Shown here: one piece after another, positions 3,934 through 44,934 of the stretch
How positions within the stretch are numbered: the first letter of the stretch is position 1
Layout: every line of letters starts with the position of its first letter
Source: a bacterium
GTDB lineage: Bacteria; Patescibacteriota; Dojkabacteria; JAKAPS01
Length of the DNA: 64,000 nucleotides
Assembly: GCA_021806925.1 (NCBI GenBank)
Contig: JAKAPS010000001.1
Location: 1,237 to 65,236, forward strand
Direction: 5' to 3'
Notes under the pieces: generated by a model
What the model was told of the DNA's origin: nothing
Seen by the model: the letters and a program-made list of their open reading frames with translations, nothing else
Databases searched by the model: none
Made by a program: the position numbers and the translations under genes

Positions 3934-4956
3934 ATGGATGCTAACTTATTCGATTTTAATCTACCTGAAGAATTAATAGCTCAGAGAAGAGCAATACCTT
4001 TTGACTCATCAAAACTGCTTATTATAGACAGAAAAGATAATTACTCTTTAAAGCACTATATATTCAGAGATATTATAGACTTTCTTGATGAAAATACAGT
4101 TTTAGTTTTTAATAACACAATGGTTTTTAGAGCAAGACTATTTGTACAAAAAAGAACTGGTGCAAAGGTAGAAATACTGTTTCTGGAAAACCCTAATGAT
4201 TTAAATAGGAATAAATTTAAGGCATTAATTAGAGGGAAAATACATCTTGGGGAAAGTATAAAAATTGATGAAGTGTGCAATATAGAGGTAAAAGAAAAAA
4301 ATGATTACGTATATACAATTGAAATAATTGGTGACAGAGCAGGTATATATAACAAACTACAATACCCAACTCCTCCATATATTCATGGTGATATAACAGA
4401 TGAATATAACACTGTATATGCATCAGCAAAGAGTACTAATAGTGTCGCAGCGCCTACTGCTGGATTTCATTTTACAGATGAATTGCTAGAAAGACTAAGA
4501 AAAAAGAAAGTTATATTTGAAAATATTACTTTAAATATAGGGTTAGGGACATTCTTACCCGTAAAAACTACAAATATATTTGACCATGATATGCATTATG
4601 AAGAATACTTTATTGATAAAGATGTATTGATAAGATTGAATAAATATAAAGAAGAAGGTAAGAAGATAATCGCAGTCGGTACTACTACAACTAGAACACT
4701 TGAAGATAGTTCATTTGGAAGCAAGGGGAAATTAAAAAAAGAATATAATAATACAAATATATTTATATTCCCAGGCTTCAAATTTAATTTTGTTGATGGG
4801 CTAATAACTAATTTTCATCTTCCTAAATCAACATTAATAATGCTTGTGTCAGCATTTATTGGAGACACAAATAAAACGCTAGAAATATATAGAACTGCAA
4901 TAGAAGAAAAATACAGATTTTACTCTTTTGGAGATGCGATGTTTATTCTTCCTTGA
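3934..4956 (+). CDS. queA: S-adenosylmethionine:tRNA ribosyltransferase-isomerase
   Basis: N-terminal FDFNLPEELIAQRR, which is diagnostic of QueA. The 340-aa length is typical, and the gene marks the organism as bacterial. Confidence 0.9.
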   Translation: MDANLFDFNLPEELIAQRRAIPFDSSKLLIIDRKDNYSLKHYIFRDIIDFLDENTVLVFNNTMVFRARLFVQKRTGAKVEILFLENPNDLNRNKFKALIRGKIHLGESIKIDEVCNIEVKEKNDYVYTIEIIGDRAGIYNKLQYPTPPYIHGDITDEYNTVYASAKSTNSVAAPTAGFHFTDELLERLRKKKVIFENITLNIGLGTFLPVKTTNIFDHDMHYEEYFIDKDVLIRLNKYKEEGKKIIAVGTTTTRTLEDSSFGSKGKLKKEYNNTNIFIFPGFKFNFVDGLITNFHLPKSTLIMLVSAFIGDTNKTLEIYRTAIEEKYRFYSFGDAMFILP

Positions 4957-6115
4957 AGAATGCCTTCTCTAAATTTTTAACATAGTTTTTTACAAGAAAA
5001 TGATTTTTTGCGTAAAGAATTGCACTAGTTGATCTATCTGCAATCTCTTTTTTACCCATATTCAATAATGTAATTAATGATTTATTTATGCCTTTTTCAC
5101 TCAAATCGAAATACACACATATCTTTTTAAAATTCTTACTTCTGAAATTATTGATTGAACTTACTAATGCAATTAAACCAAGAGATAGTGCTTCCTTCAA
5201 AACAAGCGGTGAAGTTGAACTCTCATACCTTGATGGAATTATAACAGCATTCATTTTAGAAAGACTTTCAGGAAGTTCAAAGTGATTAACAAAGTGCATG
5301 TTTTTTATATTCCCATATTTCCTTTCAAGAAGATTGACATTTTCTTCATACTCACCTTCTCCAAAGAAGAAAAATTTAATTCTATTATAGTAATTCTTGT
5401 TATATTTATTAATAGCTGAAACTAGAATATCAATACCCTTCTGGTATGAATATCTTCCAACAAAAGCGACCTTGAATATATTTGTTGACTTCCTAGTTGT
5501 ATCTACTCGCAAAAATCTTTGATCAACCGGTGATTGAATTAATTTGCTCTTTTTAACAAGCATTTTTGTATCTCTATTGAATACATGGTATTTTGTAGAT
5601 ACAAGAAAAAGTAGTATTTTAAAAAATATAGAAAGATATGATACATACATTAGGTTATGAATTACAGACCTTACTATTAATTTCCCCTCGCTATCCCTTA
5701 GATTGTTATATCTTAAAGGAGTGTGAAATTGTACTATTATCTTTCTCCTCAGATGCGGAATAAAAGGTAGGAATAAGAAAAACGGAATAAGAGACGGCAT
5801 ATCGCTTCTGGTAAAGATATATGATGCTTTCTTTGACAAATGAAATAGTTCAATTAATGAGACTTTCTCATATTTACTTTTCTTTATTAACCCCTCTTCC
5901 ATTTGTTTGTTGGATAGTTTTATAGAGTCATCATAAAAAAGCTTATTGAAAATTCTTATATTTTTCTTGAATGATAAAATATGTACCTTGTAATTCTTTT
6001 TATTAGAAAATTCCTCTGCAGTTATAATATTCAATATTTCCGCTCCAGCTTGGATCTCATGTGGAAGTGAAGAGAAAAAAAGTATTGTTCTACCTGTAGA
6101 TTTTTTTACCTTCAT
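4943..6115 (-). CDS. Glycosyltransferase, GT-B fold (GT4-like family 1)
   Basis: C-terminal FFGEGEYEE...IIPSRYESSTSPLVLKEALSLGLIALVS resembles the GT4 nucleotide-sugar binding region. Confidence 0.7.
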   Translation of the reverse strand: MKVKKSTGRTILFFSSLPHEIQAGAEILNIITAEEFSNKKNYKVHILSFKKNIRIFNKLFYDDSIKLSNKQMEEGLIKKSKYEKVSLIELFHLSKKASYIFTRSDMPSLIPFFLFLPFIPHLRRKIIVQFHTPLRYNNLRDSEGKLIVRSVIHNLMYVSYLSIFFKILLFLVSTKYHVFNRDTKMLVKKSKLIQSPVDQRFLRVDTTRKSTNIFKVAFVGRYSYQKGIDILVSAINKYNKNYYNRIKFFFFGEGEYEENVNLLERKYGNIKNMHFVNHFELPESLSKMNAVIIPSRYESSTSPLVLKEALSLGLIALVSSINNFRSKNFKKICVYFDLSEKGINKSLITLLNMGKKEIADRSTSAILYAKNHFLVKNYVKNLEKAFFKEE

Positions 6116-6149: not shown

Positions 6150-7421
6150 GTGAGAATAGTCTATATACAAAACGGTTATTTCCCTTATGAAATGAAGGGG
6201 AGTGAAGTATTAAATAGTATATATACAGATGAAGTTATTAAAAATAATGAAGTATATTGTATTGCATCAAATCTTGTAAAACCAATAGGAAAGTTTATAC
6301 CTTTCATTGGAAGGACAAAGGAAATTTATGAAAAAGTAGATGGAGTTAATGTAATTAGATTAGATTTTTTCTTTTTACCATATGTGTTTTCTCAAATAAT
6401 ATCAAAAATACCAGATGTTCCATATATGCCGTTATTGAAAAAGATAAAGAATAAGGTATTCATTTATTCACAAGGGTTCAAATACATTGGACTTGAAAAG
6501 ACATTAAGAAGAATAAATCCAGACATTGTACACACTACACCCTTGTCATGTATATATTCATACCAAGCTCTTGATGTTGTAAATAGAATAAATAGTGAAA
6601 GAAATAAATGTAATAAAGAAAATAATTCAGAGAAGAAAATAAAGATAGTATTAACTACTGCATTTCATAGTAACATTCTAAAATCATTTGATGAGGAGTA
6701 CATAAAAAAAAGATTAAAAGAGTTTTCGTTAATAATTACATCCACTCTTGCAGAAAAAGAAAAGTTAGCAAAATACTTTGATGTTGATGCTACTGTATAT
6801 ATGCCTGATATTTTAAAAAAGCATGATATACAAAAATTTTATCAACTGCAAAATTCTTCTTATTCAGATAAGATAAAAAAATTGAAGGATGATGGAAATA
6901 AGATAATTCTGTTTTGTGGAACTAAATCCAATGATAAAGGTATATACCTAACAATAGAAGTATTAAAAAAACTCATTTTAAACAATGAGAATTACACACT
7001 TGTTGTTTGTGGAACAAATACATTAGCTTGGAACATATACAAATTTATTAAATTAAGAAAATATATAGTACAGAGTAACATTATAGATGTTAAATATATA
7101 TCCAGAGGAGAATTAAACAAAATATTTTCATTGTCTGATATTTTTTTTCTTCCTTCAAGGGTTGAGACATTAGGTTTTGTATATACTGAGGCAATGTATT
7201 TCAAATTACCAATTATTGCAGATAATTCTATTGAAGAATTAAAAGAAATATATGGAGATAACATATCCTATATTGATAACAACATAAATGATCCTAATAA
7301 CATTGAGCAAATTGCAAATGAATTTTCTACTGTATATTTACAAAAGACAACAAACATCAACAAAATACATAAAAGAGACAGTAAAAACAAATTAGATAAG
7401 ATATATAAATCAATTATCTAA
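6150..7421 (+). CDS. Glycosyltransferase, GT-B fold (family 1-like)
   Basis: ILFCGTKSNDKGIY...FFLPSRVETLGFVYTEAMYFKLPIIADN resembles the GT1/GT4 C-terminal domain. It is transcribed divergently from the neighbouring glycosyltransferase. Confidence 0.6.
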   Translation: MRIVYIQNGYFPYEMKGSEVLNSIYTDEVIKNNEVYCIASNLVKPIGKFIPFIGRTKEIYEKVDGVNVIRLDFFFLPYVFSQIISKIPDVPYMPLLKKIKNKVFIYSQGFKYIGLEKTLRRINPDIVHTTPLSCIYSYQALDVVNRINSERNKCNKENNSEKKIKIVLTTAFHSNILKSFDEEYIKKRLKEFSLIITSTLAEKEKLAKYFDVDATVYMPDILKKHDIQKFYQLQNSSYSDKIKKLKDDGNKIILFCGTKSNDKGIYLTIEVLKKLILNNENYTLVVCGTNTLAWNIYKFIKLRKYIVQSNIIDVKYISRGELNKIFSLSDIFFLPSRVETLGFVYTEAMYFKLPIIADNSIEELKEIYGDNISYIDNNINDPNNIEQIANEFSTVYLQKTTNINKIHKRDSKNKLDKIYKSII

Positions 7422-7940: not shown

Positions 7941-8687
7941 TTAATTAAATATTATATCGTGAATTTCTTTTGCCCTTGCAAGCGGGTTTGGATCCTGCCA
8001 TATGTTTCTTCCTACAGCTCCACCAGAACAACCTGCTGATATTGCACCTTCGAATTCCTCCTTCAAGGCATCATCATCATTAGTCTTGTTTCCACCAGCA
8101 ATACATACAGGCATTACACCTGAACATGCAACAACCCATTTCATGGAATCAACATCTCCAGTGTATTTTACTTTAACTATATCTGCACCTATTTCAAGAC
8201 CAACCCTTGCAGCGTATGCAGTAATATCTGAAGTTTCCTCTCCAACGGTTGAACCTCTTGGGTACATCCACCCTATTACAGGAATTCCAAGATCATGAGC
8301 CTCATAAATTATTCGTGAAAACTCTTTAAGCATCTTTGCTTCATTCTTACTACCAACATAAACTGTATATCCAACAGCTTTAGCTCTTAATCTTATAGCC
8401 TCCTCGACTGAAGTCAATTGTGGAGAATATGGATCTTCATTCAAGAAATGAGTTTTACCGTTTAACTTTATAATCAATGGCGTTTTGTATTCATCTGCTT
8501 TGTAGTATTTCTCCGCTATTCCTTTTTGCACAATTACACCTGTAAACAATCCTGATTTTGTTAAATCGAAAATGTATTTTGGATTAATATTTTCAAGATT
8601 AAAATCAACTGGACCATGCTCCATGCCTTGATCATATGCTAAAAAGAAAAACTTTTTATTTTTTGATATTTTTGATAAGTCAACCAT
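7941..8687 (-). CDS. Class I aldolase of the DhnA/FbaB (archaeal-type fructose-bisphosphate aldolase) family
   Basis: FLAYDQGMEHGP, GADIVKVKY (Schiff-base Lys region) and IAGGNKTNDDD...GAVGRNIWQ match the DeoC/DhnA TIM-barrel aldolase family. Confidence 0.7.
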   Translation of the reverse strand: MVDLSKISKNKKFFFLAYDQGMEHGPVDFNLENINPKYIFDLTKSGLFTGVIVQKGIAEKYYKADEYKTPLIIKLNGKTHFLNEDPYSPQLTSVEEAIRLRAKAVGYTVYVGSKNEAKMLKEFSRIIYEAHDLGIPVIGWMYPRGSTVGEETSDITAYAARVGLEIGADIVKVKYTGDVDSMKWVVACSGVMPVCIAGGNKTNDDDALKEEFEGAISAGCSGGAVGRNIWQDPNPLARAKEIHDIIFN

Positions 8688-16912: not shown

Positions 16913-17326
16913 ATGTTTTCTGTCTTTCAAGTGATAGTGTGTCATAAACATCAGTACGATATAACTTGGTGCATTTTTGATAAGGATGATTTTTCATTAA
17001 GAAAAGCCTGTAGTTTAGTGAAAAAGAAAAACATATATGTTGATTATTCAAATAAATCATTTGAACTTTGGTATTTACTACATTTTGAATATAGATCCAA
17101 TGCAATTTCAAATGAACAATATAAAGCAAAATTATCAAAGTATCTGCGTGAGGAATATAACAAAACTTCAACTAAAATGTACGATTTATTAAAGGATAAA
17201 CAACAATACGCAATCTGTAATGCTAAGAAATTGTTTGAATACTACAATAAAAAAGATCCAGATAAGAATGATCCATCAACAATTGTATTTGAACTTGTAG
17301 AAAAATTAAATCAATATATTAAATAG
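16913..17326 (+). CDS. RloB-like domain protein, N-terminally truncated (possible gene remnant)
   Basis: IFDKDDF and SFELWYLLHFE match the conserved core of RloB (PF13707). The typical N-terminal segment of about 60 aa is missing, and an in-frame stop lies 9 nt upstream of the ATG. Confidence 0.5.
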   Translation: MFSVFQVIVCHKHQYDITWCIFDKDDFSLRKACSLVKKKNIYVDYSNKSFELWYLLHFEYRSNAISNEQYKAKLSKYLREEYNKTSTKMYDLLKDKQQYAICNAKKLFEYYNKKDPDKNDPSTIVFELVEKLNQYIK

Positions 17327-17336
17327 TTCAGATAAT

Positions 17337-17410
17337 TGGAGATGATGGGACTCGAACCCACAATCCCTGCAATGCGAATGCAGTGCTTTACCAAATTAAG
17401 CCACATCCCC
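17337..17410 (-). tRNA. tRNA-Ala (anticodon CGC)
   Basis: The reverse complement folds into a 74-nt cloverleaf: acceptor GGGGAUG/CAUCUCC with the G3:U70 Ala identity pair, D-stem GCUU/AAGC, anticodon stem CUGCA/UGCAG with loop UUCGCAU, and T-arm GUGGG-UUCGAGU-CCCAU. No CCA is encoded. Confidence 0.85.
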
Positions 17411-17460
17411 CTATTTTTTATATTATCATCAATATGATATATAATCAAAACAGATATAAA

Positions 17461-17679
17461 ATGATTGGATCATCAAATCTTAAAACAATCACAGATCTAA
17501 GGAAATTCACTCTAAATATTCTTAATACTGTTACAACAAACAGATCTCATATATACATATTATCAAGATCAAAGCCACTTGCAGTAATAATATCAATGGA
17601 GGAATACGGTAAATTATTGAAATATAAAAGAGAAGCTAAGCTATATAAAAAGAAACTCATTGCTCAAAAAGCATATTAA
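17461..17679 (+). CDS. Phd/YefM-family type II antitoxin (orphan)
   Basis: ITDLRKF...RSKPLAVIISMEEYGKLL matches the Phd/YefM fold signature. The ORF-track start (17383) overlaps the tRNA, so the internal Met at 17461 is used instead. No toxin ORF follows. Confidence 0.55.
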   Translation: MIGSSNLKTITDLRKFTLNILNTVTTNRSHIYILSRSKPLAVIISMEEYGKLLKYKREAKLYKKKLIAQKAY

Positions 17680-18709
17680 CTGTTGTTCCGCCAATCTCAT
17701 TAGCTTTAATATCAAGTTTACCATTATGTTCTATTACATATTTCCTTACAATTGAAAGTCCAATACCAAAAGGAATATCAGAAGAAATTCCTATACCAGT
17801 ATCTGAAATAGAAACGCTAAGATATCTATTTTTCCTATTGCAACATTCTATGATTTCTGTTTGTATATCAATCTTTCCATTTACAGTATATTTTATAGAA
17901 TTATACAGAACATTAATAATACATTCCTCAAACTTTGTCTTATCTAATAATACATACTTATCCCCCTTATGAGAAAAACTAATTGTTATATTGTTTTGCC
18001 TGAGCAAAATTTTTGATTCATTTATTATAGATTCAACTGATGAACAAATAGAAAAACTTTCTAATTCAATTAATCCGTTTTTACCAATGTTCTTAAATAT
18101 CCTTATAGCCCGATTAACAGCATTTCTAGCATATCCAATATATTCGTTCTCTTGAGTTTGAAGTGATATTGAGTCCTTTATTATTGATAACTGTGTATTT
18201 ATATCATGTGCAAACATTTTGTACTCCATATTTTCAGCACTTAATGAAATATATTTTGAGAAGTTATAGGCAATAATAGACAAGAAGTCTATATTAATAT
18301 TTTCTTTTTCAAGAGCAATTAACAATACACATTGATTGTCTCCATAAACCTTAACAGGAATACTAACAACAGATGCAACATTAAATACTTTTTGTATAAT
18401 CTTTGCACTATTCTTCATTTGACTAACAGTGAAATCTTCACATTTTCTACTTTGGAATATCTTATTACTTAAATATGATTTGCTTATATTATTGTCATCA
18501 TTCATCATATATTTTATATCCTTCAATTTAACTGGCAAATATTCAAGCGATGATTCTACAATTTTTTTCTTACTTGCACATAGTGGTGATAAGTAATTCG
18601 AGTTGTTAATAATATTGTTTAGTACTGGACAAAACAACAAAACACCTTTAATAAATGGTATATCATCGAACAAATCAACATACATCTGGTAAATATCCTC
18701 TATGTTCAT
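17657..18709 (-). CDS. Cytoplasmic sensor histidine kinase
   Basis: H-box FAHDINTQL and HATPase_c motifs (LYNSIKYT, SDTGIGIS, GIGLSIV). No TM helices. Confidence 0.7.
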   Translation of the reverse strand: MNIEDIYQMYVDLFDDIPFIKGVLLFCPVLNNIINNSNYLSPLCASKKKIVESSLEYLPVKLKDIKYMMNDDNNISKSYLSNKIFQSRKCEDFTVSQMKNSAKIIQKVFNVASVVSIPVKVYGDNQCVLLIALEKENINIDFLSIIAYNFSKYISLSAENMEYKMFAHDINTQLSIIKDSISLQTQENEYIGYARNAVNRAIRIFKNIGKNGLIELESFSICSSVESIINESKILLRQNNITISFSHKGDKYVLLDKTKFEECIINVLYNSIKYTVNGKIDIQTEIIECCNRKNRYLSVSISDTGIGISSDIPFGIGLSIVRKYVIEHNGKLDIKANEIGGTTVNMLFEQ

Positions 18710-20435: not shown

Positions 20436-21413
20436 TTGAAAAACACAAAAACACTAATTATAAAAATTATATCAGTCACTTTGTTGTTGATTTTAGTATA
20501 TTTTATATCGAACCCACATATATTTAACAATAATAATATAGTTTCAAGAAAAACAAATAATGTTACAGTAGAAGCATATACTCCATTACAAAATTTTGAT
20601 ATTCAAACATGGAATAAAGAAGCATTTCTAACAAGCACTGGGTCCTTTACAATTGAAATACCCTACGATACTACAGTTACATTAAATAATGGAATATATA
20701 CATTAAGTGCTAAAGAGTATGGAACTGTAACAATATCTTCTACTATTGCAGTTGATGGTACAAATTCATTGCCATATGACGGATATATAAACAATATATT
20801 CAGAGCAAAGACAACCTATCTTAAGAACTCTAATGAAAGTATACAGATATATACAAAGAACAGTGTTATTTCATTTAACTTTTCTTCAAATGTTGAAAAC
20901 TTCGTGAAGGAATTTCTTACCACATTTATATATACAGAAGATTCAACTACAAATCCAATAGAAACGATTCTCTTTAAACATAATTTTGAGTCCAACAATA
21001 CATATACAATATTTTACCCTAGTAACTATTTCTTAGACCAGAAATATACAACTGGATATAGCCAATCCTGCCCAAACGAATCACTTGTAAAGCTCATAAA
21101 TTCAAACATGCAGAATATAATCACAATTGACTTTAATCCATGTGCAACCACACAATATGTAGTTACAGATTCAGTTATAAAGTATAACTCCATTGATATT
21201 TTTAAAGTGAGTAATAATGAATATTGTGCAATGAGCATGTCATCTCCACAAATGTCATATATTTCTTTAATTCCAGCAAGAAATTTGAACTTTGGATTTA
21301 ACTATACAGAATTCTTTGGTATTACACCAATCAAATTATGTCTATCATCACAAAATCCGTCGCAATATATACATGACTTAGAATACATTGGAACAAACAT
21401 GGATATATACTAA
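20436..21413 (+). CDS. Secreted or membrane-anchored hypothetical protein
   Basis: N-terminal signal/anchor helix followed by a hydrophilic Asn/Ser/Thr-rich body. Confidence 0.45.
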   Translation: MKNTKTLIIKIISVTLLLILVYFISNPHIFNNNNIVSRKTNNVTVEAYTPLQNFDIQTWNKEAFLTSTGSFTIEIPYDTTVTLNNGIYTLSAKEYGTVTISSTIAVDGTNSLPYDGYINNIFRAKTTYLKNSNESIQIYTKNSVISFNFSSNVENFVKEFLTTFIYTEDSTTNPIETILFKHNFESNNTYTIFYPSNYFLDQKYTTGYSQSCPNESLVKLINSNMQNIITIDFNPCATTQYVVTDSVIKYNSIDIFKVSNNEYCAMSMSSPQMSYISLIPARNLNFGFNYTEFFGITPIKLCLSSQNPSQYIHDLEYIGTNMDIY

Positions 21414-21458: not shown

Positions 21459-23480
21459 ATGAAAGGGAAAATCTTGCTATTGTTTTTTATTCCCTTACTG
21501 TCTATTCTCTATTTTTTTAGACCATTTACAAATGTATACGGTGCTACAGTTTGCTCTAATACACCAAATGAATTAAATATAAGCAACCAATTTTTACAAA
21601 ATAACGTTTATGCAGGAGTTCCATTTCCTCTTGTTATTTATGCATGTAATTCAAGTGGTCAAATAGATTCTACATTTAATGGAAATGTTCAATTGACAGA
21701 TAGTACAACTACTCTCTACCCATCTAGTACAACTAATTTTGTCGATGGTGTATGGTCTGGGCAAGTTACAATAACTAGAGCAATTAATTCTGATCAAATA
21801 ACTGCATACAGTTCTCTTTATGGAAACGGTATATCATCATCATTTAATGTATTACCTTCAGAAAATGGAATAATTGAAACAATAATACAGGGTTCAAATC
21901 AATCTGGGGTAGTAGGAAGCAATCTTCCACAGGCATTAAGTGTTACAACAACTGACCAATTCGGGAATATAGTCTCAGGCGTTGGCGTCACATTTACAAT
22001 TGCTCCTCCACCTAGTGGTGCTACAGGACAAAGCCTTTCAAACTATAGTGCAATTACTAATTCCAGTGGTTCTGCATCAACAGTGATGACATTAGGTACG
22101 AAAGAAGGAATATACATTGTTACCGTTCAAGTCTCAACTGGATCTTCAAAAACAAGCTCACAATATTATGAGTATGCTAGTAGCGGATCACTTGCAGTGT
22201 TAAATATATCTCCAGCAAGTGCTATTGTTCCTCAAGGAGGAGTTATTAATTTTCAAGCAAGCGGACTTGATAAATATGGTAATCCAGTAACAATATCTTC
22301 ACCTGTTTGGTCAATATCTAATGGTGGAGGTACAATCGATCAAAATGGAAATTTTACTGCAGGACAAACAACTGGCATGTACTATAACACAGTTTCTGCT
22401 GCAATCGGAGGTATAGGAACTACAGCAACAGTTAATATAATTTCAGCACAAAATGGTTCAGGGAGTGGAACAGGAGCTACATCAACACCAACTCCATCTC
22501 CAACTCCTACTCCAGACTATGTAACTGTTACACCAACTCCAACACCAACTCCTGATTATGTCACATTAACACCTACTCCATCACCAGATCCTATCGATCA
22601 TGTGCTTATAAATCCAAATCCTGTAACCGTTTCTCAAGGTGAATCAGTGTCTATTACTGCAACTGCGTATGATGCAAATAATAATCCATTGAATGGAACA
22701 TTTAATTGGGTTATATCAACTGGACTTGGAACACTTAGTTCAAATTATGGATCAAGTGTTACTTTGAATGCTGGTAATACACCTGGAAATGGTACAATAT
22801 CAGTTTCTGCTCTTAATTCAACAGGATCAAAAAGTGATACTGTAAATGTAACAATAATTCCTAGCCCGCTCGCACAAAAATTACTTAATGATAATATTGG
22901 AGGAGGACACTTCTATATAAAAAACATAGGGAATCAGACTACAAACACTCCATTTCTTGTAATAGTTATGGCAGAAGATAACAACAATAATATAATTAAG
23001 AATTTTAATAGTCCTATTGTAATTGATGATACTACGCATACAATAACACCTGGTAGCGGAACTAATTTCATAAACGGAATATGGTCTGGAAACGAAGTTA
23101 TCACAACTCCACAGAATAATGATGTTGTATCTGTTTCTGGCGGTGGTATAACTGGAACAAGTAATGAGTTCAATGTTACTGGTAAATCACCTCCAAATAT
23201 ATTTTCAACACTATCAAGCAAAATATCAAGTGTTATTGTACAAGCAAATAGTGGAACAAATTCTAAATTTGATTCAAGAATAATTAGTGCTGGATTAATA
23301 TCTGGTCTTGGACTTCTAGGTAGCGCACTAAGTATTGGACTAATGTCTTCAAAGGGCTTAGAGGCAATTGGAAGAAACCCCTATGCAAGAGGGAAGATAC
23401 AAATCTCAATGTTAATATCAACAGTGGTATGTATCGGAATATCTATTGCAGGGATTGTACTGTCTATAGTAATAAAGTGA
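21459..23480 (+). CDS. Large secreted Ig-like (Big) domain protein with a Thr/Pro linker and a C-terminal ATP synthase c-subunit-like transmembrane hairpin
   Basis: Signal peptide, then repeated beta-rich segments resembling bacterial Ig-like domains. A TPTPSPTPTPDYVTVTPTPTPTPDYVTLTPTPSPDP linker follows. The C-terminal 65 aa (GLISGLGLLGSALSIGLMSSKGLEAIGRNPYARGKIQISMLISTVVCIGISIAGIVLSIV) align with F-type AtpE (GxGxGxG helix, ARQP-like loop, second helix). Confidence 0.55.
   Translation: MKGKILLLFFIPLLSILYFFRPFTNVYGATVCSNTPNELNISNQFLQNNVYAGVPFPLVIYACNSSGQIDSTFNGNVQLTDSTTTLYPSSTTNFVDGVWSGQVTITRAINSDQITAYSSLYGNGISSSFNVLPSENGIIETIIQGSNQSGVVGSNLPQALSVTTTDQFGNIVSGVGVTFTIAPPPSGATGQSLSNYSAITNSSGSASTVMTLGTKEGIYIVTVQVSTGSSKTSSQYYEYASSGSLAVLNISPASAIVPQGGVINFQASGLDKYGNPVTISSPVWSISNGGGTIDQNGNFTAGQTTGMYYNTVSAAIGGIGTTATVNIISAQNGSGSGTGATSTPTPSPTPTPDYVTVTPTPTPTPDYVTLTPTPSPDPIDHVLINPNPVTVSQGESVSITATAYDANNNPLNGTFNWVISTGLGTLSSNYGSSVTLNAGNTPGNGTISVSALNSTGSKSDTVNVTIIPSPLAQKLLNDNIGGGHFYIKNIGNQTTNTPFLVIVMAEDNNNNIIKNFNSPIVIDDTTHTITPGSGTNFINGIWSGNEVITTPQNNDVVSVSGGGITGTSNEFNVTGKSPPNIFSTLSSKISSVIVQANSGTNSKFDSRIISAGLISGLGLLGSALSIGLMSSKGLEAIGRNPYARGKIQISMLISTVVCIGISIAGIVLSIVIK
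22486..22590 (+). repeat. Imperfect tandem repeat DNA encoding the TPTPTPDYVT(V/L)TPTP linker
   Basis: ACTCCAACTCC...GACTATGTAACTGTTACACC units are visible in the sequence. Confidence 0.5.
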
Positions 23481-23672
23481 CTCTTTTTCTTAATAAATTA
23501 AAAAATTAATTTTATCTATAATCTTCTATATATGTCACAATTCAAGTAAAACACTTTATTGATTAATCACATTGATTGTAATTATAGAAATATATAAATA
23601 CAAGAGCAATATTCATATTTAATTTCCGTTACTTTAATATACTAGAATAGTAAGTATTACATCATATTGGGC

Positions 23673-23715
23673 GATTCGTCTACCCCAAATCTCCGATTTT
23701 GACAATTATCGGAGA
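23673..23715. repeat. 43-bp direct repeat, copy 1, containing an 8-bp palindrome (TCTCCGAT-N10-ATCGGAGA)
   Basis: GATTCGTCTACCCCAAATCTCCGATTTTGACAATTATCGGAGA. It matches copy 2 at 41 of 43 positions. Confidence 0.8.
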
Positions 23716-23734
23716 TCTGTGTTAATATTTACAT

Positions 23735-24982
23735 ATGGATGAAACTTTAGCTATACAAAATCCATGGTGGGAAGGAAGGCCATTGAAAAAATCAGTAGAA
23801 AGGAAAGAAGCACTATATGCCCTTAAACAAAGAGTAAAAAATAATAGAGTTTGTATGCTACTCGGTGGAAGGAGAGTTGGTAAAACGACCCTTATACATC
23901 AATACATTGGCGAATTATTGAATACTGGTGTTGAACCAAAAAATATATGCTATATTCTTCTTGATTCTAATGCATTCGAGAAGATATCAATATTTGAACT
24001 AATAAGAAAATACCGACAAATACACAACTTAAAAAGAGATGAGAATGTTTATTTATTTCTTGATGAAATTCAATATAAGGATAATTGGGAGCAATATATC
24101 AAAAATATTTATGATACTGAACCAAATATAAATGTTATGTTATCTGGATCAGCAAGTTTTAAAATTCATACTAAAACCTCATTTTTAACTGGACGATTTT
24201 CAATTCTTTATCTTTATCCCTTGTCATTTAAAGAATTTCTTCAATTTAAAAACATACAAATCTCCCTATCTGAAAAGTATATATATGAAAATGAGTTAAA
24301 TGAATATCTTCTAAAAGGAGGTTATCCTGAATATCTTTTGACTGAAGATTATCAATACTTTCCAAATCTGGTTGACAGTATAATCTATAAGGATTTTGTC
24401 GAATATTTCAATATAAAGAATCTAAACATAGTAAAAGATTTACTTAAGCTTATTGCTGATAGAACTGGATCTCATACGAGTCTTTCAAAATTAGGAAAAA
24501 TATTATCAATAGCCAAGGAAACAGTAAGAGATTATGTCTTTGCACTAAAGGAAACATTTACTATTTATGAATTACAAAGATATGCTACATCAAGAAATGA
24601 AAGGATTTACTTTCCCAAAAAATATTATATAAATGATAATGGTTTATTATTTAACTTGAGCGGTAAGTTTAATAAAGGGCAAGTTGCAGAGCAAACACTT
24701 TTTGATTTCTTATATAAAAAGTATAATGAATCATTGTACTTTTATTATTACGATGGTATAGAGATAGATTTTCTTATTAAGGACGCTGATGGAATTCAGT
24801 TAATTGAATCTAAATATATTAATGATGTAGAAGAATTCGATTCGAAATTACTTGTTAAAGCTATGGAGACATTGAAAGTTAGTAAGGCTGTTGTAATAAC
24901 AGAATCTCTTGAAAATACAATAGAATTTAGTAATAAGTCTATAGAATATATTCCCCTATGGAAATATATTCTTTCTCTGTAA
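23735..24982 (+). CDS. AAA+ ATPase of the AAA_14/DUF4143 family
   Basis: Walker A GGRRVGKTTL, Walker B LFLDEIQ and the characteristic C-terminal DUF4143-like region. Confidence 0.8.
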   Translation: MDETLAIQNPWWEGRPLKKSVERKEALYALKQRVKNNRVCMLLGGRRVGKTTLIHQYIGELLNTGVEPKNICYILLDSNAFEKISIFELIRKYRQIHNLKRDENVYLFLDEIQYKDNWEQYIKNIYDTEPNINVMLSGSASFKIHTKTSFLTGRFSILYLYPLSFKEFLQFKNIQISLSEKYIYENELNEYLLKGGYPEYLLTEDYQYFPNLVDSIIYKDFVEYFNIKNLNIVKDLLKLIADRTGSHTSLSKLGKILSIAKETVRDYVFALKETFTIYELQRYATSRNERIYFPKKYYINDNGLLFNLSGKFNKGQVAEQTLFDFLYKKYNESLYFYYYDGIEIDFLIKDADGIQLIESKYINDVEEFDSKLLVKAMETLKVSKAVVITESLENTIEFSNKSIEYIPLWKYILSL

Positions 24983-25008
24983 ACTATACAGAAACGTATC
25001 TGACAAAA

Positions 25009-25051
25009 GATTCGTCTACCCTCAATCTCCGATTTTGACAATTATCGGAGA
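25009..25051. repeat. 43-bp direct repeat, copy 2, with the same internal palindrome
   Basis: GATTCGTCTACCCTCAATCTCCGATTTTGACAATTATCGGAGA. With copy 1 it brackets the AAA ATPase gene. Confidence 0.8.
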
Positions 25052-25155
25052 CTCTTAAAGCAGTTATCATAAATTGACAGAACATATAAAAATCACAATA
25101 TGTTTTATATATTTTTTACAAAACATAAAATATATATTATATTATTTATAGATTT

Positions 25156-25659
25156 ATGTTATATATTCTTATTGCTTTAAATGTATTTCTTCTTCTTTTA
25201 ATTGGCTTAATTATATTTTTTGTTTTAAAAGATAGAGATGTAGAGAAAAAATTACGTGAAGAACTTGAAACAATAAAAAAAGTATATGATGAAAAGACAA
25301 ATCTTTTCAAAGAAGAAGCTGATAAAGCTAAAGATTTAGCAAATATATCAGAACAAAATTATGATGCAATACAAAAAGAAATTGACTCAATAAAAATTGA
25401 ATACGAAAATAAGGAGAAAACATTAAATGATAATATTGAAGCGAAGATTAAAGAGTTATCTGAATTAGAGGAGACTGCTGTAAAAAGAGCAGAAGACAGG
25501 GTTAGAGAATATGAAAAGAGTCAGAAGACTGAAATAGAAAAGAATATGGTTGACCTAGTTATAAACGTAACAAAGAAAGTATTTGAAAAATCACTTACTT
25601 ATGAGGATCATAAAAGAATAATAGAAAAATCAATATCAGATTTAAAAATGGATGATTAA
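25156..25659 (+). CDS. atpF: F0F1 ATP synthase subunit b
   Basis: N-terminal TM helix followed by a long charged coiled coil, positioned upstream of delta. Confidence 0.75.
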   Translation: MLYILIALNVFLLLLIGLIIFFVLKDRDVEKKLREELETIKKVYDEKTNLFKEEADKAKDLANISEQNYDAIQKEIDSIKIEYENKEKTLNDNIEAKIKELSELEETAVKRAEDRVREYEKSQKTEIEKNMVDLVINVTKKVFEKSLTYEDHKRIIEKSISDLKMDD

Positions 25660-43628: not shown

Positions 43629-44768
43629 TTACAAAAGTATTTTATCAAGTGTTAGTAATGCTTCTTTAAACGGAATAATATCAATACCATCTATATACTG
43701 CATTACACTACCCCCATATATAACATGACATATAGCTGACGGATAATCCTTCCTGAATATCTTAAGATTTCTAATATCATTTGATGATATATTTCTTTTA
43801 CTCTTAATTTCGAAAGCATGAAGCTTATTATCATTGTATGCAATAAAATCCACCTCTACACCGCTTTTTGTCCTGTAATAATACAACTTATACCCTAGCT
43901 GCAAGTAATCATTGATTGCAAGTAAATTTTGAAAAAAAAGACTTTCTAATGCAATACCGCCTATTTCCTCAGGTTTATCAAATACACCATTTGGTCTTAT
44001 TGCTCTATATATTCCTACATCAAAAAAATAAAATTTACTATGGTTTATTAACCGTCTCTTCGCCTTTTTTGAAAAAAAAGGCAATCTTAAACCAACTAAC
44101 AGATCCTCAAGTATATTAAAATAAATTTCTACAACTTTCCTACCAACTGATGATTCTCTTCCAACCTCAGAAATATTTAACACTGAACCTTGTGAGAAGC
44201 TTGCAGCTTCTAAAAATCTTGAGAAAGATCCAATATTACGAGTGATCCCCTCTTGAATTATCTCTTGTTGCAGATATGTTTTAACATAATCTGATATATA
44301 CTTTTTCATATCTTCCTCATAAAATACTGATGGTAATCCACCAAATTCCAAGTAATTTTTCAGAGATAATCTCTCCCCCAATTCAATAGCAGTAAGTGGA
44401 TACATAAAGTATGTTAATGCCCTTCCACCTAGTAGGTTCTGTCCGCTTTTTCTTAGTTTCCTTGCACTAGAACCAGTTAATATAAATTTGTATTTCTCTA
44501 CCTCTATTAGACGATGCACCTCATTTAGTAATTCTGGGACCATTTGGATTTCGTCAATTATTATCCAATCTTTAAAATCTTGTTTAATAAAATCTGATAA
44601 TCTTGAAGGATTAGCAACAAGCCTTGTATATGTTTCTGAGTACAATAGGTCTATGTATATTGCGTTAGGAAATGTATTTTTAACCCATGTTGTTTTACCA
44701 GTCCCCCTTGCTCCAAATAAAAAGAAACTCTTGTTGGAAGGGAATTTTTTAAGTAGTCTTGTATACAT
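43629..44768 (-). CDS. AAA+ ATPase of the AAA_14/DUF4143 family (second copy)
   Basis: Walker A FGARGTGKTT, Walker B IIIDEIQ and a DUF4143-like C-terminus. The start is uncertain; the ORF track extends it to 44897. Confidence 0.75.
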   Translation of the reverse strand: MYTRLLKKFPSNKSFFLFGARGTGKTTWVKNTFPNAIYIDLLYSETYTRLVANPSRLSDFIKQDFKDWIIIDEIQMVPELLNEVHRLIEVEKYKFILTGSSARKLRKSGQNLLGGRALTYFMYPLTAIELGERLSLKNYLEFGGLPSVFYEEDMKKYISDYVKTYLQQEIIQEGITRNIGSFSRFLEAASFSQGSVLNISEVGRESSVGRKVVEIYFNILEDLLVGLRLPFFSKKAKRRLINHSKFYFFDVGIYRAIRPNGVFDKPEEIGGIALESLFFQNLLAINDYLQLGYKLYYYRTKSGVEVDFIAYNDNKLHAFEIKSKRNISSNDIRNLKIFRKDYPSAICHVIYGGSVMQYIDGIDIIPFKEALLTLDKILL

Positions 44769-44934
44769 ACTAGCATAGTATAACACACAAATACGGAGAA
44801 ATGGAATGGAAAATTCCAAAATGCCTGCCAAAATGGAGTTAGCGATTCCATTTTGACATAATTTTACATCTATAAAAAACTGCAATAAATCCACCAATTA
44901 CATGGTAAAGTCGATTATTATACGCATTATACCC

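What the first reader, a model, noticed from the sequence alone, without database searches (positions are those of the whole stretch)
23673..25051. DUF4143 AAA ATPase gene bracketed by 43-bp direct repeats, inserted between the c-like gene and atpF
GATTCGTCTACCC(CA/TC)AATCTCCGATTTTGACAATTATCGGAGA occurs at 23673-23715 and again at 25009-25051, matching at 41 of 43 positions. Each copy contains the perfect palindrome TCTCCGAT-N10-ATCGGAGA, and the loop carries TTGACA. The two repeats flank the AAA_14/DUF4143 ATPase gene (23735-24982) precisely. This looks like a cassette-like insertion into the atp locus (attL/attR-like ends or a duplicated operator-bearing element) rather than ordinary intergenic sequence. 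A second DUF4143 ATPase at 43629-44768 lacks these repeats.
Basis: seen in the sequence. Interest (0 to 1): 0.65.

Follow-up and report, generated by a model that had tools for sequence, protein, structure and literature searches.

The report
Duplicated promoter-operator flanking an inserted defence-candidate gene
The 43-bp repeat is the complete promoter-operator of a horizontally acquired ATPase-nuclease gene that sits inside the ATP synthase operon, and the second copy after the gene is a rare duplication of exactly that operator, not a generic repeat or a proven integration site.

Summary
Two 43-bp copies (23673-23715 and 25009-25051, 41/43 identical) are the only ones in 64 kb. Each carries TCTCCGAT-N10-ATCGGAGA around TTGACA.

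The gene (23735-24982) is an AAA_14/DUF4143 ATPase with a predicted winged helix and a PD-(D/E)XK nuclease motif. It matches the PADLOC candidate defence family PDC-S01. It is a real insertion: in three related genomes the c-like gene abuts atpF (0-17 nt).

R1 is the gene's own promoter-operator. Homologous units in other contexts carry one related copy at the same distance from the start codon. Across about 25 more distant homologues the design recurs. Box X1 and inverted box X2 lie upstream of -35, box X3 lies between -35 and -10, and the start codon follows 5-9 nt after -10 (leaderless). The box sequence differs by lineage, which suggests autoregulation.

R spans exactly X1 to X3. R2 is that operator without a -10. 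None of 40 homologues has a copy within 500 bp downstream of its gene, so R2 is not a general cassette end. One independent locus (L031) duplicated the same span (-64..-20) around a foreign DUF433 cassette. This points to an operator-edge-defined recombination event of unknown mechanism.

No integrase, REP-like spread or Rfam match was found.

The parts
21459..23480 (+). Upstream neighbour: a 673-aa secreted Ig-like (Big_1) protein with a C-terminal ATP-synthase c-like hairpin. It marks the left border of the insertion.
   Evidence: Pfam Big_1 and ATP-synt_C; translation. In relatives this gene is directly followed by atpF.
23481..23672 (.). 192 nt of AT-rich spacer with no counterpart in related atp loci. 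Its origin is unknown.
   Evidence: It shows no similarity to the flanks of homologous units or to DUF4143 coding sequence.
23673..23715 (+). R1, the working promoter-operator. It contains box X1 (ATTCGTCTACC, 23674-23684), box X2 (TCTCCGAT, 23690-23697), the -35 TTGACA (23699-23704) and box X3 (ATCGGAGA, 23708-23715).
   Evidence: It is homologous to the single upstream copy in L002, L010, L012, L099 and L100. It occupies positions -26..+17 relative to the -35, the same span as the three-box operator of distant homologues.
23723..23728 (+). Predicted -10 hexamer TAATAT with TG upstream, 18 nt after the -35. The ATG follows 6 nt later, so the mRNA is probably leaderless.
   Evidence: Promoter scan, 10 of 12 matches with an extended-10 TG. 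The same geometry is seen in about 25 homologues. No transcription start site was measured.
23735..24982 (+). Inserted gene: an AAA+ ATPase with a winged helix and a PD-(D/E)XK nuclease motif (DUF4143 / COG1373 / PADLOC PDC-S01 candidate defence protein), 415 aa.
   Evidence: Pfam. PADLOC PDC-S01, E 5.7e-73. Invariant Walker A and B residues and E343, D345, E358, K360. AlphaFold model with pLDDT 86. STAND/ORC-like fold matches, best 2qen.
24983..25008 (.). 26-nt tail between the stop codon and R2.
   Evidence: Sequence. It is not conserved in homologues: homology between L010 and L002/L012 ends at the stop codon.
25009..25051 (+). R2, an extra copy of the whole operator (X1, X2, -35, X3) with no -10 at usable spacing and no gene behind it.
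   Evidence: The promoter scan finds no promoter using its TTGACA. There is no DUF4143 remnant beside it. No homologue has such a downstream copy.
25052..25155 (.). 104 nt of AT-rich spacer before atpF. It holds a promoter-like site (TTTACA-17-TATATT, 25115-25143).
   Evidence: This is a consensus match only, and the number of such sites in the region is not above the shuffle expectation.
25156..25659 (+). atpF-like gene (b subunit) and the first of atpF-H-A-G-D-C. It marks the right border of the insertion.
   Evidence: Position and size match the ORFs after the c-like gene in L014, L015 and L016. Downstream genes have Pfam hits to OSCP, alpha, gamma, beta and epsilon subunits.

Best explanation
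The 43-bp repeat is the complete operator of a self-contained accessory gene unit of about 1.3 kb. The unit consists of operator, -10 and gene. The gene encodes a PDC-S01-type AAA+ ATPase with a winged helix and a PD-(D/E)XK nuclease motif.

Shown:
- The unit lies between the c-like gene and atpF, which are adjacent in related genomes.
- R1 is homologous to the single upstream element of related units in unrelated contexts.
- R1 spans exactly three recognition boxes arranged around the -35 hexamer.
- This three-box design is conserved across the family, while the box sequence changes with lineage.

Inferred:
- RNA polymerase uses TTGACA (in the palindrome loop) and TAATAT 18 nt downstream, and starts at or next to the ATG, giving a leaderless mRNA.
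- The gene's own product binds the boxes through its winged helix and represses itself by occluding the -35.

R2 is a second copy of exactly this operator, without a -10.

Inferred, less certain:
- R2 arose in a recombination or insertion event whose breakpoints were set by the edges of the operator. That could be the protein footprint or the palindrome structure. The same span was duplicated independently in locus L031.
- R2 probably still binds the same protein. It makes the gene excisable by recombination between R1 and R2, but it is not a promoter.
For: - **Insertion:** the c-like gene and atpF are separated by 8, 0 and 17 nt in L014, L015 and L016, against 1675 nt here.
- **R1 is native to the gene:** units 59-65% identical at protein level sit in different contexts. 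Each has one related motif (10-13 mismatches of 43) ending 18-19 nt before the start codon.
- **Unit boundary:** DNA homology between units begins at the left edge of the motif. Window versus L002, L010 and L012 starts at 23675. L010 versus L002/L012 runs from 5941 to the stop codon.
- **Genome collection scan:** a motif pattern hit only two loci among species-representative genomes, both directly upstream of a 417-aa homologue.
- **Family-wide design:** in 25 loci anchored on the -35, complementarity peaks at a centre inside the -35 hexamer (62% against about 27% background). A second peak lies at about -13.5. The -35 to -10 spacing is 16-18 nt, and the start codon follows 5-9 nt after the -10. 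About half of 46 loci have a perfect palindrome reached by at most 1% of shuffles, and the arm sequences differ by lineage.
- **Gene-specific regulation:** the paralogue elsewhere in this genome (P0005, on the same 206,887-bp contig) has a diverged version of the boxes, and the second, 23%-identical DUF4143 gene in the window has no copy of the repeat.
- **R equals positions -26..+17 relative to the -35, i.e. X1 to X3**.
- **R2 is unusual:** none of 40 homologues has its own operator within 500 bp downstream. In 65 loci only the window (-62..-20) and L031 (-64..-20, 45 nt, 91%) have a second operator copy. In L031 the copies flank a DUF433 cassette, and the outer copy lacks a -10.
- **Protein:** PADLOC PDC-S01, invariant nuclease and Walker residues, model with a helix-turn-helix-plus-wing segment before the nuclease domain, ORC/STAND-like fold.
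Against: - No binding, transcription start or cleavage data exist. The promoter call is a consensus match in AT-rich DNA, where such matches are common.
- That the gene product itself binds the boxes is inferred. It rests on co-variation, the lack of a conserved neighbouring regulator and a predicted winged helix.
- Box X1 in this subfamily resembles X3 only weakly (ATCG...A), so the three-box reading rests partly on position.
- Operator-edge-defined duplication rests on two loci. The events differ in layout: here the copy is downstream of the gene, in L031 it is upstream with foreign DNA between.
- The nearest relatives with an uninterrupted atp operon are distant (48% or less protein identity for the c-like gene). 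The empty site cannot be compared at nucleotide level, and the origin of the 192-nt and 104-nt spacers is unexplained.
Confidence: 0.6

Rival explanations
1. R1 and R2 are true attL/attR joints. A circular cassette carrying one copy of the 43 bp integrated by site-specific recombination into a pre-existing copy. The operator doubles as the recombination core, and the ATPase-nuclease or a host recombinase catalyses the reaction.
For: - The identity has sharp edges, and the adjacent CA/TC difference could reflect two parental sites.
- L031 has the same operator span flanking a foreign cassette.
- Homologous units are often bracketed by direct repeats of 36-62 bp: 8 of 59 against 4 of 147 neighbouring genes for strong repeats.
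Against: - No integrase, transposase or HUH gene is called within 10 kb.
- 63 of 65 homologous loci carry a single operator copy.
- There is no reason for an operator copy to pre-exist inside a tight atp operon.
- No solo copies turned up in species-representative genomes or viral contigs.
- Flanking repeats elsewhere are target-derived and heterogeneous. L032 duplicates the 3' end of a neighbouring gene, and L036 duplicates the 5' part of an ABC ATPase gene.
Confidence: 0.15
2. R2 is what remains of a second, tandem unit (or of a head-to-tail dimer of the unit) whose -10 and gene were deleted. The operator was kept because binding of the regulator there is useful. It might act as a roadblock or insulator between the inserted gene and atpF, or as a second site for looping.
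For: - The only two differences lie in the X1-X2 spacer, the part with no presumed contact.
- DUF4143 genes do occur in pairs nearby (L002, L010, L100).
- L019 has a tandemly duplicated operator palindrome.
- No terminator lies between the gene and atpF.
Against: - No trace of DUF4143 coding sequence or a -10 follows R2.
- The loop, which varies freely between orthologous operators, is 10 of 10 identical between R1 and R2 while the flanks are unrelated. The sharp edges therefore look original rather than the result of decay.
- It needs two events whose breakpoints both fall on operator edges.
Confidence: 0.15
3. The repeat acts as an RNA hairpin, such as a terminator, processing site or stabiliser in atp operon transcripts, rather than as a DNA operator.
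For: - An 8-bp stem forms on either strand.
- R2 would be transcribed if the gene's mRNA reads through.
Against: - No T tract follows either copy, and the scan finds no terminator there.
- R1 lies upstream of the predicted start.
- There is no Rfam match even at E up to 1.
- In homologues the constant element is the -35 hexamer in the loop at fixed promoter spacing, which is a DNA-level constraint.
- In the closest orthologues (L002, L010) the hairpin is not stable.
Confidence: 0.05
4. The repeat is a generic REP/MITE-like intergenic repeat of this genome that flanks the gene by chance.
For: Sister genomes do contain a dispersed 45-60-nt intergenic element between accessory genes.
Against: - There are only two copies in 64 kb, and no partial copies of the palindrome.
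- The dispersed element of the sister genomes is absent from the window.
- Every related copy elsewhere sits at the same distance upstream of a homologous gene.
Confidence: 0.03

Closest known systems
PDC-S01 (PADLOC phage-defence candidate; Pfam AAA_14 + DUF4143, COG1373)
   Same: The gene matches the PDC-S01 models over its full length. It has the ATPase plus PD-(D/E)XK architecture described for PDC-S01 (PMC12988326) and listed for DUF4143 in the PD-(D/E)XK survey (PMC3424549). Like the family, it is patchily distributed and also occurs on plasmids.
   Different: Anti-phage activity of PDC-S01 has not been validated (PMC12988326). The papers read here for this family (PMC12988326, PMC3424549, 10.1101/2024.01.29.577857) describe no operator, leaderless promoter or flanking duplication. 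The literature was searched by family name only (DUF4143, COG1373, PDC-S01), not by regulatory terms.
Autoregulated promoters of mobile defence genes, e.g. controller (C) proteins of restriction-modification systems with C-box operators (from my own knowledge, not checked here)
   Same: Palindromic operator boxes lie at or around the -35 of the regulator's own gene. The transcript is leaderless. Operator specificity travels with the gene on horizontal transfer.
   Different: Here the presumed regulator is the effector itself, a large ATPase-nuclease, not a small helix-turn-helix protein. There are three boxes with one between -35 and -10. No binding has been shown.
Insertion sequences whose transposase promoter lies in the terminal repeat and is repressed by transposase binding (from my own knowledge)
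   Same: The protein-binding site sits at the extreme left end of the mobile unit and overlaps the promoter. In this window a second copy lies at the other end.
   Different: The copies are direct, not inverted. There is no DDE, HUH, serine or tyrosine recombinase. Homologous units normally have only the left copy.
Integron gene cassettes with attC sites
   Same: A single gene is bracketed by similar short repeats that contain an inverted repeat.
   Different: R contains no GTT triplet, so the GTTRRRY core is absent. No IntI gene is nearby. The cassette carries its own promoter, and the repeat is part of that promoter.
Duplication of a protein-measured site on insertion (target-site duplications of transposons; duplication of the CRISPR repeat during spacer integration; from my own knowledge)
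   Same: A segment with sharp, protein-footprint-sized edges ends up on both sides of inserted DNA, here and in L031.
   Different: This is purely an analogy. 43-45 bp is longer than usual target duplications, and no enzyme activity is known for this family.

Membership tests
DUF4143 / PDC-S01 ATPase-nuclease (the gene) | AAA_14 and DUF4143 domains above the Pfam gathering scores | tested here: met
   115.7 bits (cut-off 27) and 79.2 bits (cut-off 28.1).
DUF4143 / PDC-S01 ATPase-nuclease (the gene) | Full-length match to the PADLOC PDC-S01 models | tested here: met
   PDLC04787, E 5.7e-73, residues 19-414 against profile positions 9-408 of 412.
DUF4143 / PDC-S01 ATPase-nuclease (the gene) | Walker A and B motifs and a C-terminal PD-(D/E)XK motif | tested here: met
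   G44, K50, T51, D110, E111 and E343, D345, E358, K360 are invariant in 16 sequences.
DUF4143 / PDC-S01 ATPase-nuclease (the gene) | Protection against phage | not testable with these tools
   Not validated for the family either (PMC12988326).
Promoter with autoregulatory operator (R1) | -35 and -10 hexamers at 16-18 nt spacing directly upstream of the gene | tested here: met
   TTGACA-18-TAATAT with TG. The same geometry holds in 25 homologues. This is consensus level only.
Promoter with autoregulatory operator (R1) | Symmetric binding boxes overlapping the promoter, conserved in position while the sequence co-varies | tested here: met
   Complementarity is 62% at the centre of the -35 against about 27% background. 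Palindromes are significant by shuffle in about half of 46 loci, with different arms.
Promoter with autoregulatory operator (R1) | Binding of the gene's own product and repression | not testable with these tools
   Inferred from the predicted winged helix, from different upstream boxes in DUF4143 paralogues of one genome and from variable neighbours.
Integrated element with attL/attR | Recombinase (tyrosine, serine, DDE or HUH) in or next to the element | tested here: not met
   Genes called within 10 kb on either side have no such Pfam hit on record. Only the ATPase-nuclease lies between the repeats.
Integrated element with attL/attR | Empty site with a single copy in related genomes | tested here: inconclusive
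   Related atp loci have no insertion and no room for a 43-bp site (0-17 nt gaps). They are too distant for base-level comparison.
Integrated element with attL/attR | Both ends present around other copies of the element | tested here: not met
   None of 40 homologues has a downstream copy. 63 of 65 loci have a single copy.
REP / MITE-like dispersed repeat | Many dispersed copies independent of any one gene | tested here: not met
   Two copies in 64 kb. Hits in other genomes lie only upstream of homologous genes. The rest of this genome could not be searched.
Integron cassette / attC | attC with a GTTRRRY core, a promoterless cassette and an IntI gene | tested here: not met
   R contains no GTT. 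The repeat carries the gene's own -35. No integrase was found.
Known structured RNA | Match to an Rfam covariance model | tested here: not met
   No match in 23400-25200 at E up to 1.

The most novel reading that the evidence does not exclude
PDC-S01/DUF4143 proteins bind the three-box operator at the left end of their own gene unit and can cut DNA at both edges of that footprint. Staggered cleavage about 43-45 bp apart, followed by fill-in, would explain both cases. Here a gene unit ends up flanked by its operator. In L031 foreign DNA is captured inside a duplicated operator. Under this reading one of the commonest candidate defence genes would be a single-gene self-mobilising or DNA-capturing element, with a mechanism that resembles duplication of the CRISPR repeat during spacer integration.
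Probability: 0.1. Interest if true: 0.85.

Novelty: new variant of a known kind. Interest (0 to 1): 0.45.

Why it matters
PDC-S01 is reported as the fourth most common defence-type gene across prokaryotes, yet it has no known mechanism (PMC12988326).

This locus led to a concrete, testable regulatory model for the family. A three-box operator is wrapped around the -35. The transcript is leaderless. Box specificity co-varies with the protein, which predicts that the effector is itself a sequence-specific DNA binder.

The exact duplication of the operator in two unrelated loci suggests that the operator edges are recombination-prone. That would bear on how these single genes spread into places as constrained as an ATP synthase operon.

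If the duplication is only an accident, the finding reduces to an accessory gene with its promoter inserted in an operon, which is ordinary.

Tried and rejected
- **Second DUF4143 gene beside the repeats:** I looked for a remnant next to R2 or R1. tblastn and shuffled local alignments gave nothing above chance.
- **Flank origin:** I compared the 192-nt and 104-nt flanks with the flanks of homologous units and found no similarity.
- **Further copies of the motif:** there were two hits in species-representative genomes, both upstream of homologues, and none in viral contigs. The source genome is not in the genome collection, so its remaining contigs could not be searched.
- **Strain polymorphism at this site:** all four assemblies that encode this atpF show the same arrangement.
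- **R2 as a promoter for atpF:** there is no -10 at 16-18 nt on either strand (and direct reading).
- **Terminator reading:** there is no T tract and no scan hit.
- **Rfam:** no match for the region or for the dispersed element of the sister genomes.
- **Integron or attC reading:** rejected on sequence and context.
- **NCBIfam and PDB sequence search:** they gave no informative name for the protein.
- **Source preprint for the PDC candidates:** it does not discuss PDC-S01 in its main text.
Full report
**1. Observation**

The 43-bp sequence occurs exactly twice in the window, at 23673-23715 and 25009-25051. The copies match at 41 of 43 positions, and no match occurred in 100 shuffles. The two differences are adjacent (CA versus TC at repeat positions 14-15).

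The palindrome TCTCCGAT-N10-ATCGGAGA is found only in these two places. TTGACA lies in its loop. A window-wide repeat scan shows no other high-identity repeat family.

Similarity ends abruptly on both sides of the 43 bp. R1 ends 19 nt before the ATG at 23735. R2 begins 26 nt after the stop at 24982. The same arrangement is present in all four public assemblies that carry this gene, so it is not an assembly artefact.

**2. The gene and its setting**

The ORF 23735-24982 has AAA_14 and DUF4143 domains. Walker A and B residues and an E-x-D ... E-x-K nuclease motif are invariant among 16 relatives. DUF4143/COG1373 is listed in the PD-(D/E)XK survey with unknown function (PMC3424549).

An AlphaFold model (pLDDT 86) shows three parts in order:
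- an AAA+ core
- a helical region with a helix-turn-helix-plus-wing segment
- a C-terminal alpha/beta domain

Its best structural matches are the archaeal Walker-type ATPase 2qen and STAND/ORC-type ATPases.

The protein matches PADLOC's PDC-S01 over its full length (E 5.7e-73). PDC-S01 is an unvalidated single-gene defence candidate. It is described as an ATPase fused to a PD-(D/E)XK domain and as the fourth most common defence-type system in prokaryotes (PMC12988326). Distant homologues occur on 355 plasmid records and 22 phage-like records.

The closest relatives come from Patescibacteria, including Dojkabacteria.

**3. It is an insertion**

The neighbours are a 673-aa Ig-like protein with a c-subunit-like C-terminus (21459-23480) and atpF-H-A-G-D-C (from 25156).

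Three related genomes have the same fusion gene, with product 48%, 35% and 34% identical to the window protein. In all three it is followed directly by atpF, with gaps of 8, 0 and 17 nt. Here 1675 nt lie between them.

The nearest homologues of the ATPase (59-65% identity) lie in unrelated contexts:
- next to an AI-2E transporter and a Fic gene
- next to FtsX/ABC genes
- next to a TraG-like gene
- next to NUDIX genes
- next to a methyltransferase

This includes a paralogue in the same genome. The gene is therefore an accessory, horizontally moving unit.

**4. What R1 is**

Every one of those homologous units has exactly one related copy of the 43-mer, with 10-13 mismatches. It ends 18-19 nt before the start codon, and there is none anywhere else in the locus.

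DNA homology between units starts at the left edge of the motif:
- Window versus L002, L010 and L012 begins at 23675.
- L010 versus L002/L012 (85% identity) runs from 5941, the first base of the motif, to the stop codon.

A degenerate motif pattern scanned over one genome per species found only two loci. Both lie directly upstream of a 417-aa homologue. Viral contigs gave none.

R1 is therefore the 5' regulatory region of the unit and marks its left end. A promoter scan places TTGACA (in the loop), then 18 nt, then TG-n-TAATAT. The ATG follows 6 nt after the -10, which implies a leaderless mRNA.

**5. The design is family-wide**

I fetched 80 metagenomic loci of homologues at 29-47% identity and read their upstream regions. 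In about 25 of 46 usable loci the same geometry holds: -35, 16-18 nt, -10, then 5-9 nt to the start codon.

With sequences anchored without gaps on the -35:
- Complementarity between mirrored positions peaks sharply at a centre inside the -35 hexamer (62% against a background of about 27%).
- It peaks again at about -13.5 (45-47%).

In plain terms, a box X1 lies at about -25..-16 and its inverted copy X2 at about -12..-3. Then comes the -35, and a further copy X3 lies at about +8..+17.

The -35 is constant, while the box sequence differs between lineages: TATCGAT, TTTCCAT, TTTCGA, TGCCAT, GTCGCCG, and TCTCCGAT here. About half of the 46 loci have perfect palindromes that at most 1% of shuffles reach.

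DUF4143 paralogues within one genome carry different upstream boxes: the paralogue P0005 on this genome's 206,887-bp contig has a diverged version, and the second, 23%-identical DUF4143 gene in the window has a different inverted repeat (AATGGA-N9-TCCATT) upstream. No conserved neighbouring regulator exists.

The most economical reading is autoregulation by the gene's own product through its winged helix. This is an inference and was not shown.

Measured from the -35, the 43-bp repeat spans -26..+17. That is X1 through X3 and nothing else.

**6. What R2 is**

R2 is the whole operator without a -10. No hexamer with the required A2/T6 lies 16-18 nt after its TTGACA, and the scan finds no promoter there on either strand.
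- No T-rich tail follows it.
- There is no Rfam match.
- No trace of a second DUF4143 gene lies beside it.

It is not a general feature of these units. None of 40 homologues has a copy of its own operator within 500 bp downstream.

Searching 65 loci for any second copy of the upstream region gave only two cases:
- the window, duplicated span -62..-20 relative to the ATG
- L031, duplicated span -64..-20, 45 nt, 91% identical

L031 has an unrelated box sequence, and its protein is 43% identical to the window protein (best tblastn segment). There the extra copy lies 564 nt upstream and also lacks a -10. The DNA between the copies encodes a DUF433 protein and a truncated small ORF.

Two independent duplications thus share the same boundaries, which are the operator edges. 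Between R1 and R2 the loop is 10 of 10 identical, although it varies freely among orthologous operators. The flanks are unrelated. The sharp edges therefore look original to the event and not the result of decay around a conserved core.

**7. Other flanking repeats**

Comparing 600 nt upstream with 600 nt downstream of 59 homologous genes gave strong direct repeats around 8 of them. The same test on 147 neighbouring genes gave 4. The repeats are mostly 36-62 bp and are heterogeneous:
- In L032 a 36-bp copy of the 3' end of the convergent neighbouring gene abuts the operator's left edge. The original lies at the unit's stop codon.
- In L063 a repeat of about 47 bp also abuts the operator.
- In L036 174 bp of the 5' part of an ABC ATPase gene is duplicated.
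- In L012 and L018 the repeats are dispersed intergenic elements.

These support the view that the unit inserts as a block from operator to stop codon, often with duplication of target DNA. They do not identify a mechanism, and the controls are not independent of the test loci.

**8. Interpretation**

Firm conclusions:
- The repeat is real.
- The gene is an insertion.
- R1 is the gene's native promoter-operator.
- The repeat is not REP-like, not an attC site and not a known RNA.

Probable conclusions:
- The gene is autoregulated by its own product.
- The transcript is leaderless.

Open question: how R2 arose and whether it does anything.

I favour an operator-edge-defined recombination or repair event. 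The trigger could be cleavage or stalling at the bound or extruded palindromic operator. A true att system is less likely because there is no recombinase and single copies are the rule. Decay of a tandem copy is less likely because there are no remnants and the loop is identical.

R2 should still bind whatever binds R1. With R1 it makes the gene excisable by recombination between 43-bp repeats. It may act as a roadblock before atpF. None of this is shown.

**9. Novelty and score**

An accessory defence-type gene with its promoter, inserted in an operon, is ordinary. Two things are less ordinary:
- The conserved three-box operator and leaderless design of PDC-S01 genes is not described in the papers I read for this family.
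- Exact operator duplications recur in two unrelated loci.

I rate the finding as a new variant of a known kind, with interest 0.45. The most novel reading is that the ATPase-nuclease cuts at the edges of its own operator and thereby mobilises itself or captures DNA. I give it about 10%.

Noticed in passing
window 21459-23480 (and 20436-21413): The 'c subunit' gene encodes a 673-aa protein with a signal peptide, Ig-like Big_1 repeats and a Pro/Thr-rich linker. Only its last ~65 residues resemble an ATP synthase c hairpin. By eye, the position of the ion-binding Glu/Asp in helix 2 is occupied by Cys/Ile. The same fusion precedes atpF in relatives (P0122-P0129). No a-subunit gene is recognisable: the upstream ORF has no Pfam hit. 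This may be an unusual F-type ATPase membrane sector in this Patescibacteria lineage.
   Followed up: partly
L018-L097 and L002-L012, upstream 75 nt of each DUF4143 gene: There is a family-wide promoter design: palindromic boxes X1/X2 upstream of TTGACA, a third box between -35 and -10, and a start codon 5-9 nt after the -10 (leaderless). The box sequence differs by lineage. A minority of loci instead have a 16-20 nt leader with a Shine-Dalgarno-like AGAGG, or a leader of 27-50 nt.
   Followed up: yes
L031 2329-2373 and 2937-2981: This is a second, independent duplication of a whole DUF4143 operator (45 nt, 91%). It flanks 564 nt that encode a DUF433 protein and a truncated small ORF. The outer copy abuts the stop codon of a phosphoglucose isomerase gene and has no -10. 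Two of the differences between the copies are symmetric across the palindrome (CCGTT..AACGG versus CCATT..AATGG).
   Followed up: partly
L012 2842-2884, 3646-3688, ~5203-5244; L002 ~7297-7368 and 8608-8650; L010 5706-5748: A dispersed intergenic element of about 45-60 nt (ATCCAAACTAAAAGCGGTTCGATCTGAGGCACCTTAAGGTCAA) separates accessory genes (DUF4143, Fic and others) in sister genomes, a little like spacers between cassettes. It has no Rfam match and is absent from the window.
   Followed up: partly
L032 2898-2933 / 4226-4261; L036 422-595 / 1997-2170; L020 581-633 / 2168-2220: Homologous units are bracketed by direct duplications of neighbouring-gene sequence. L032 duplicates the last 36 nt of a convergent gene. 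L036 duplicates 174 nt of the 5' part of an ABC ATPase gene (85% identical). L020 has a 53-nt duplication, and separately a copy of the first ~26 nt of the downstream ORF (779-806 / 2451-2478). In each case the neighbouring gene stays intact.
   Followed up: partly
L012 3797-5255 versus L002 5910-7368: The same DUF4143 unit is 98.8% identical over 1459 bp in two different MAGs with different neighbouring genes. This indicates recent transfer or rearrangement of the unit.
   Followed up: partly
window 43629-44768 (minus strand) and its upstream region 44769-44860: A second, distantly related DUF4143 gene (23% identical) has its own upstream inverted repeat (AATGGA-N9-TCCATT plus further TCCATT copies). 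The most likely start is the ATG at 44768, not the TTG at 44897.
   Followed up: partly
L100 3558-6251: Two DUF4143 genes are transcribed divergently from a 189-nt spacer. The spacer holds two different operators (GTCGAT-type and TCTCCGAT-type).
   Followed up: no
window ~16913-17680: An RloB-domain ORF and a PhdYeFM-type antitoxin ORF lie about 6 kb upstream of the insertion, next to tRNA-Ala (17337-17410). This suggests other accessory or defence-type genes in the neighbourhood.
   Followed up: no
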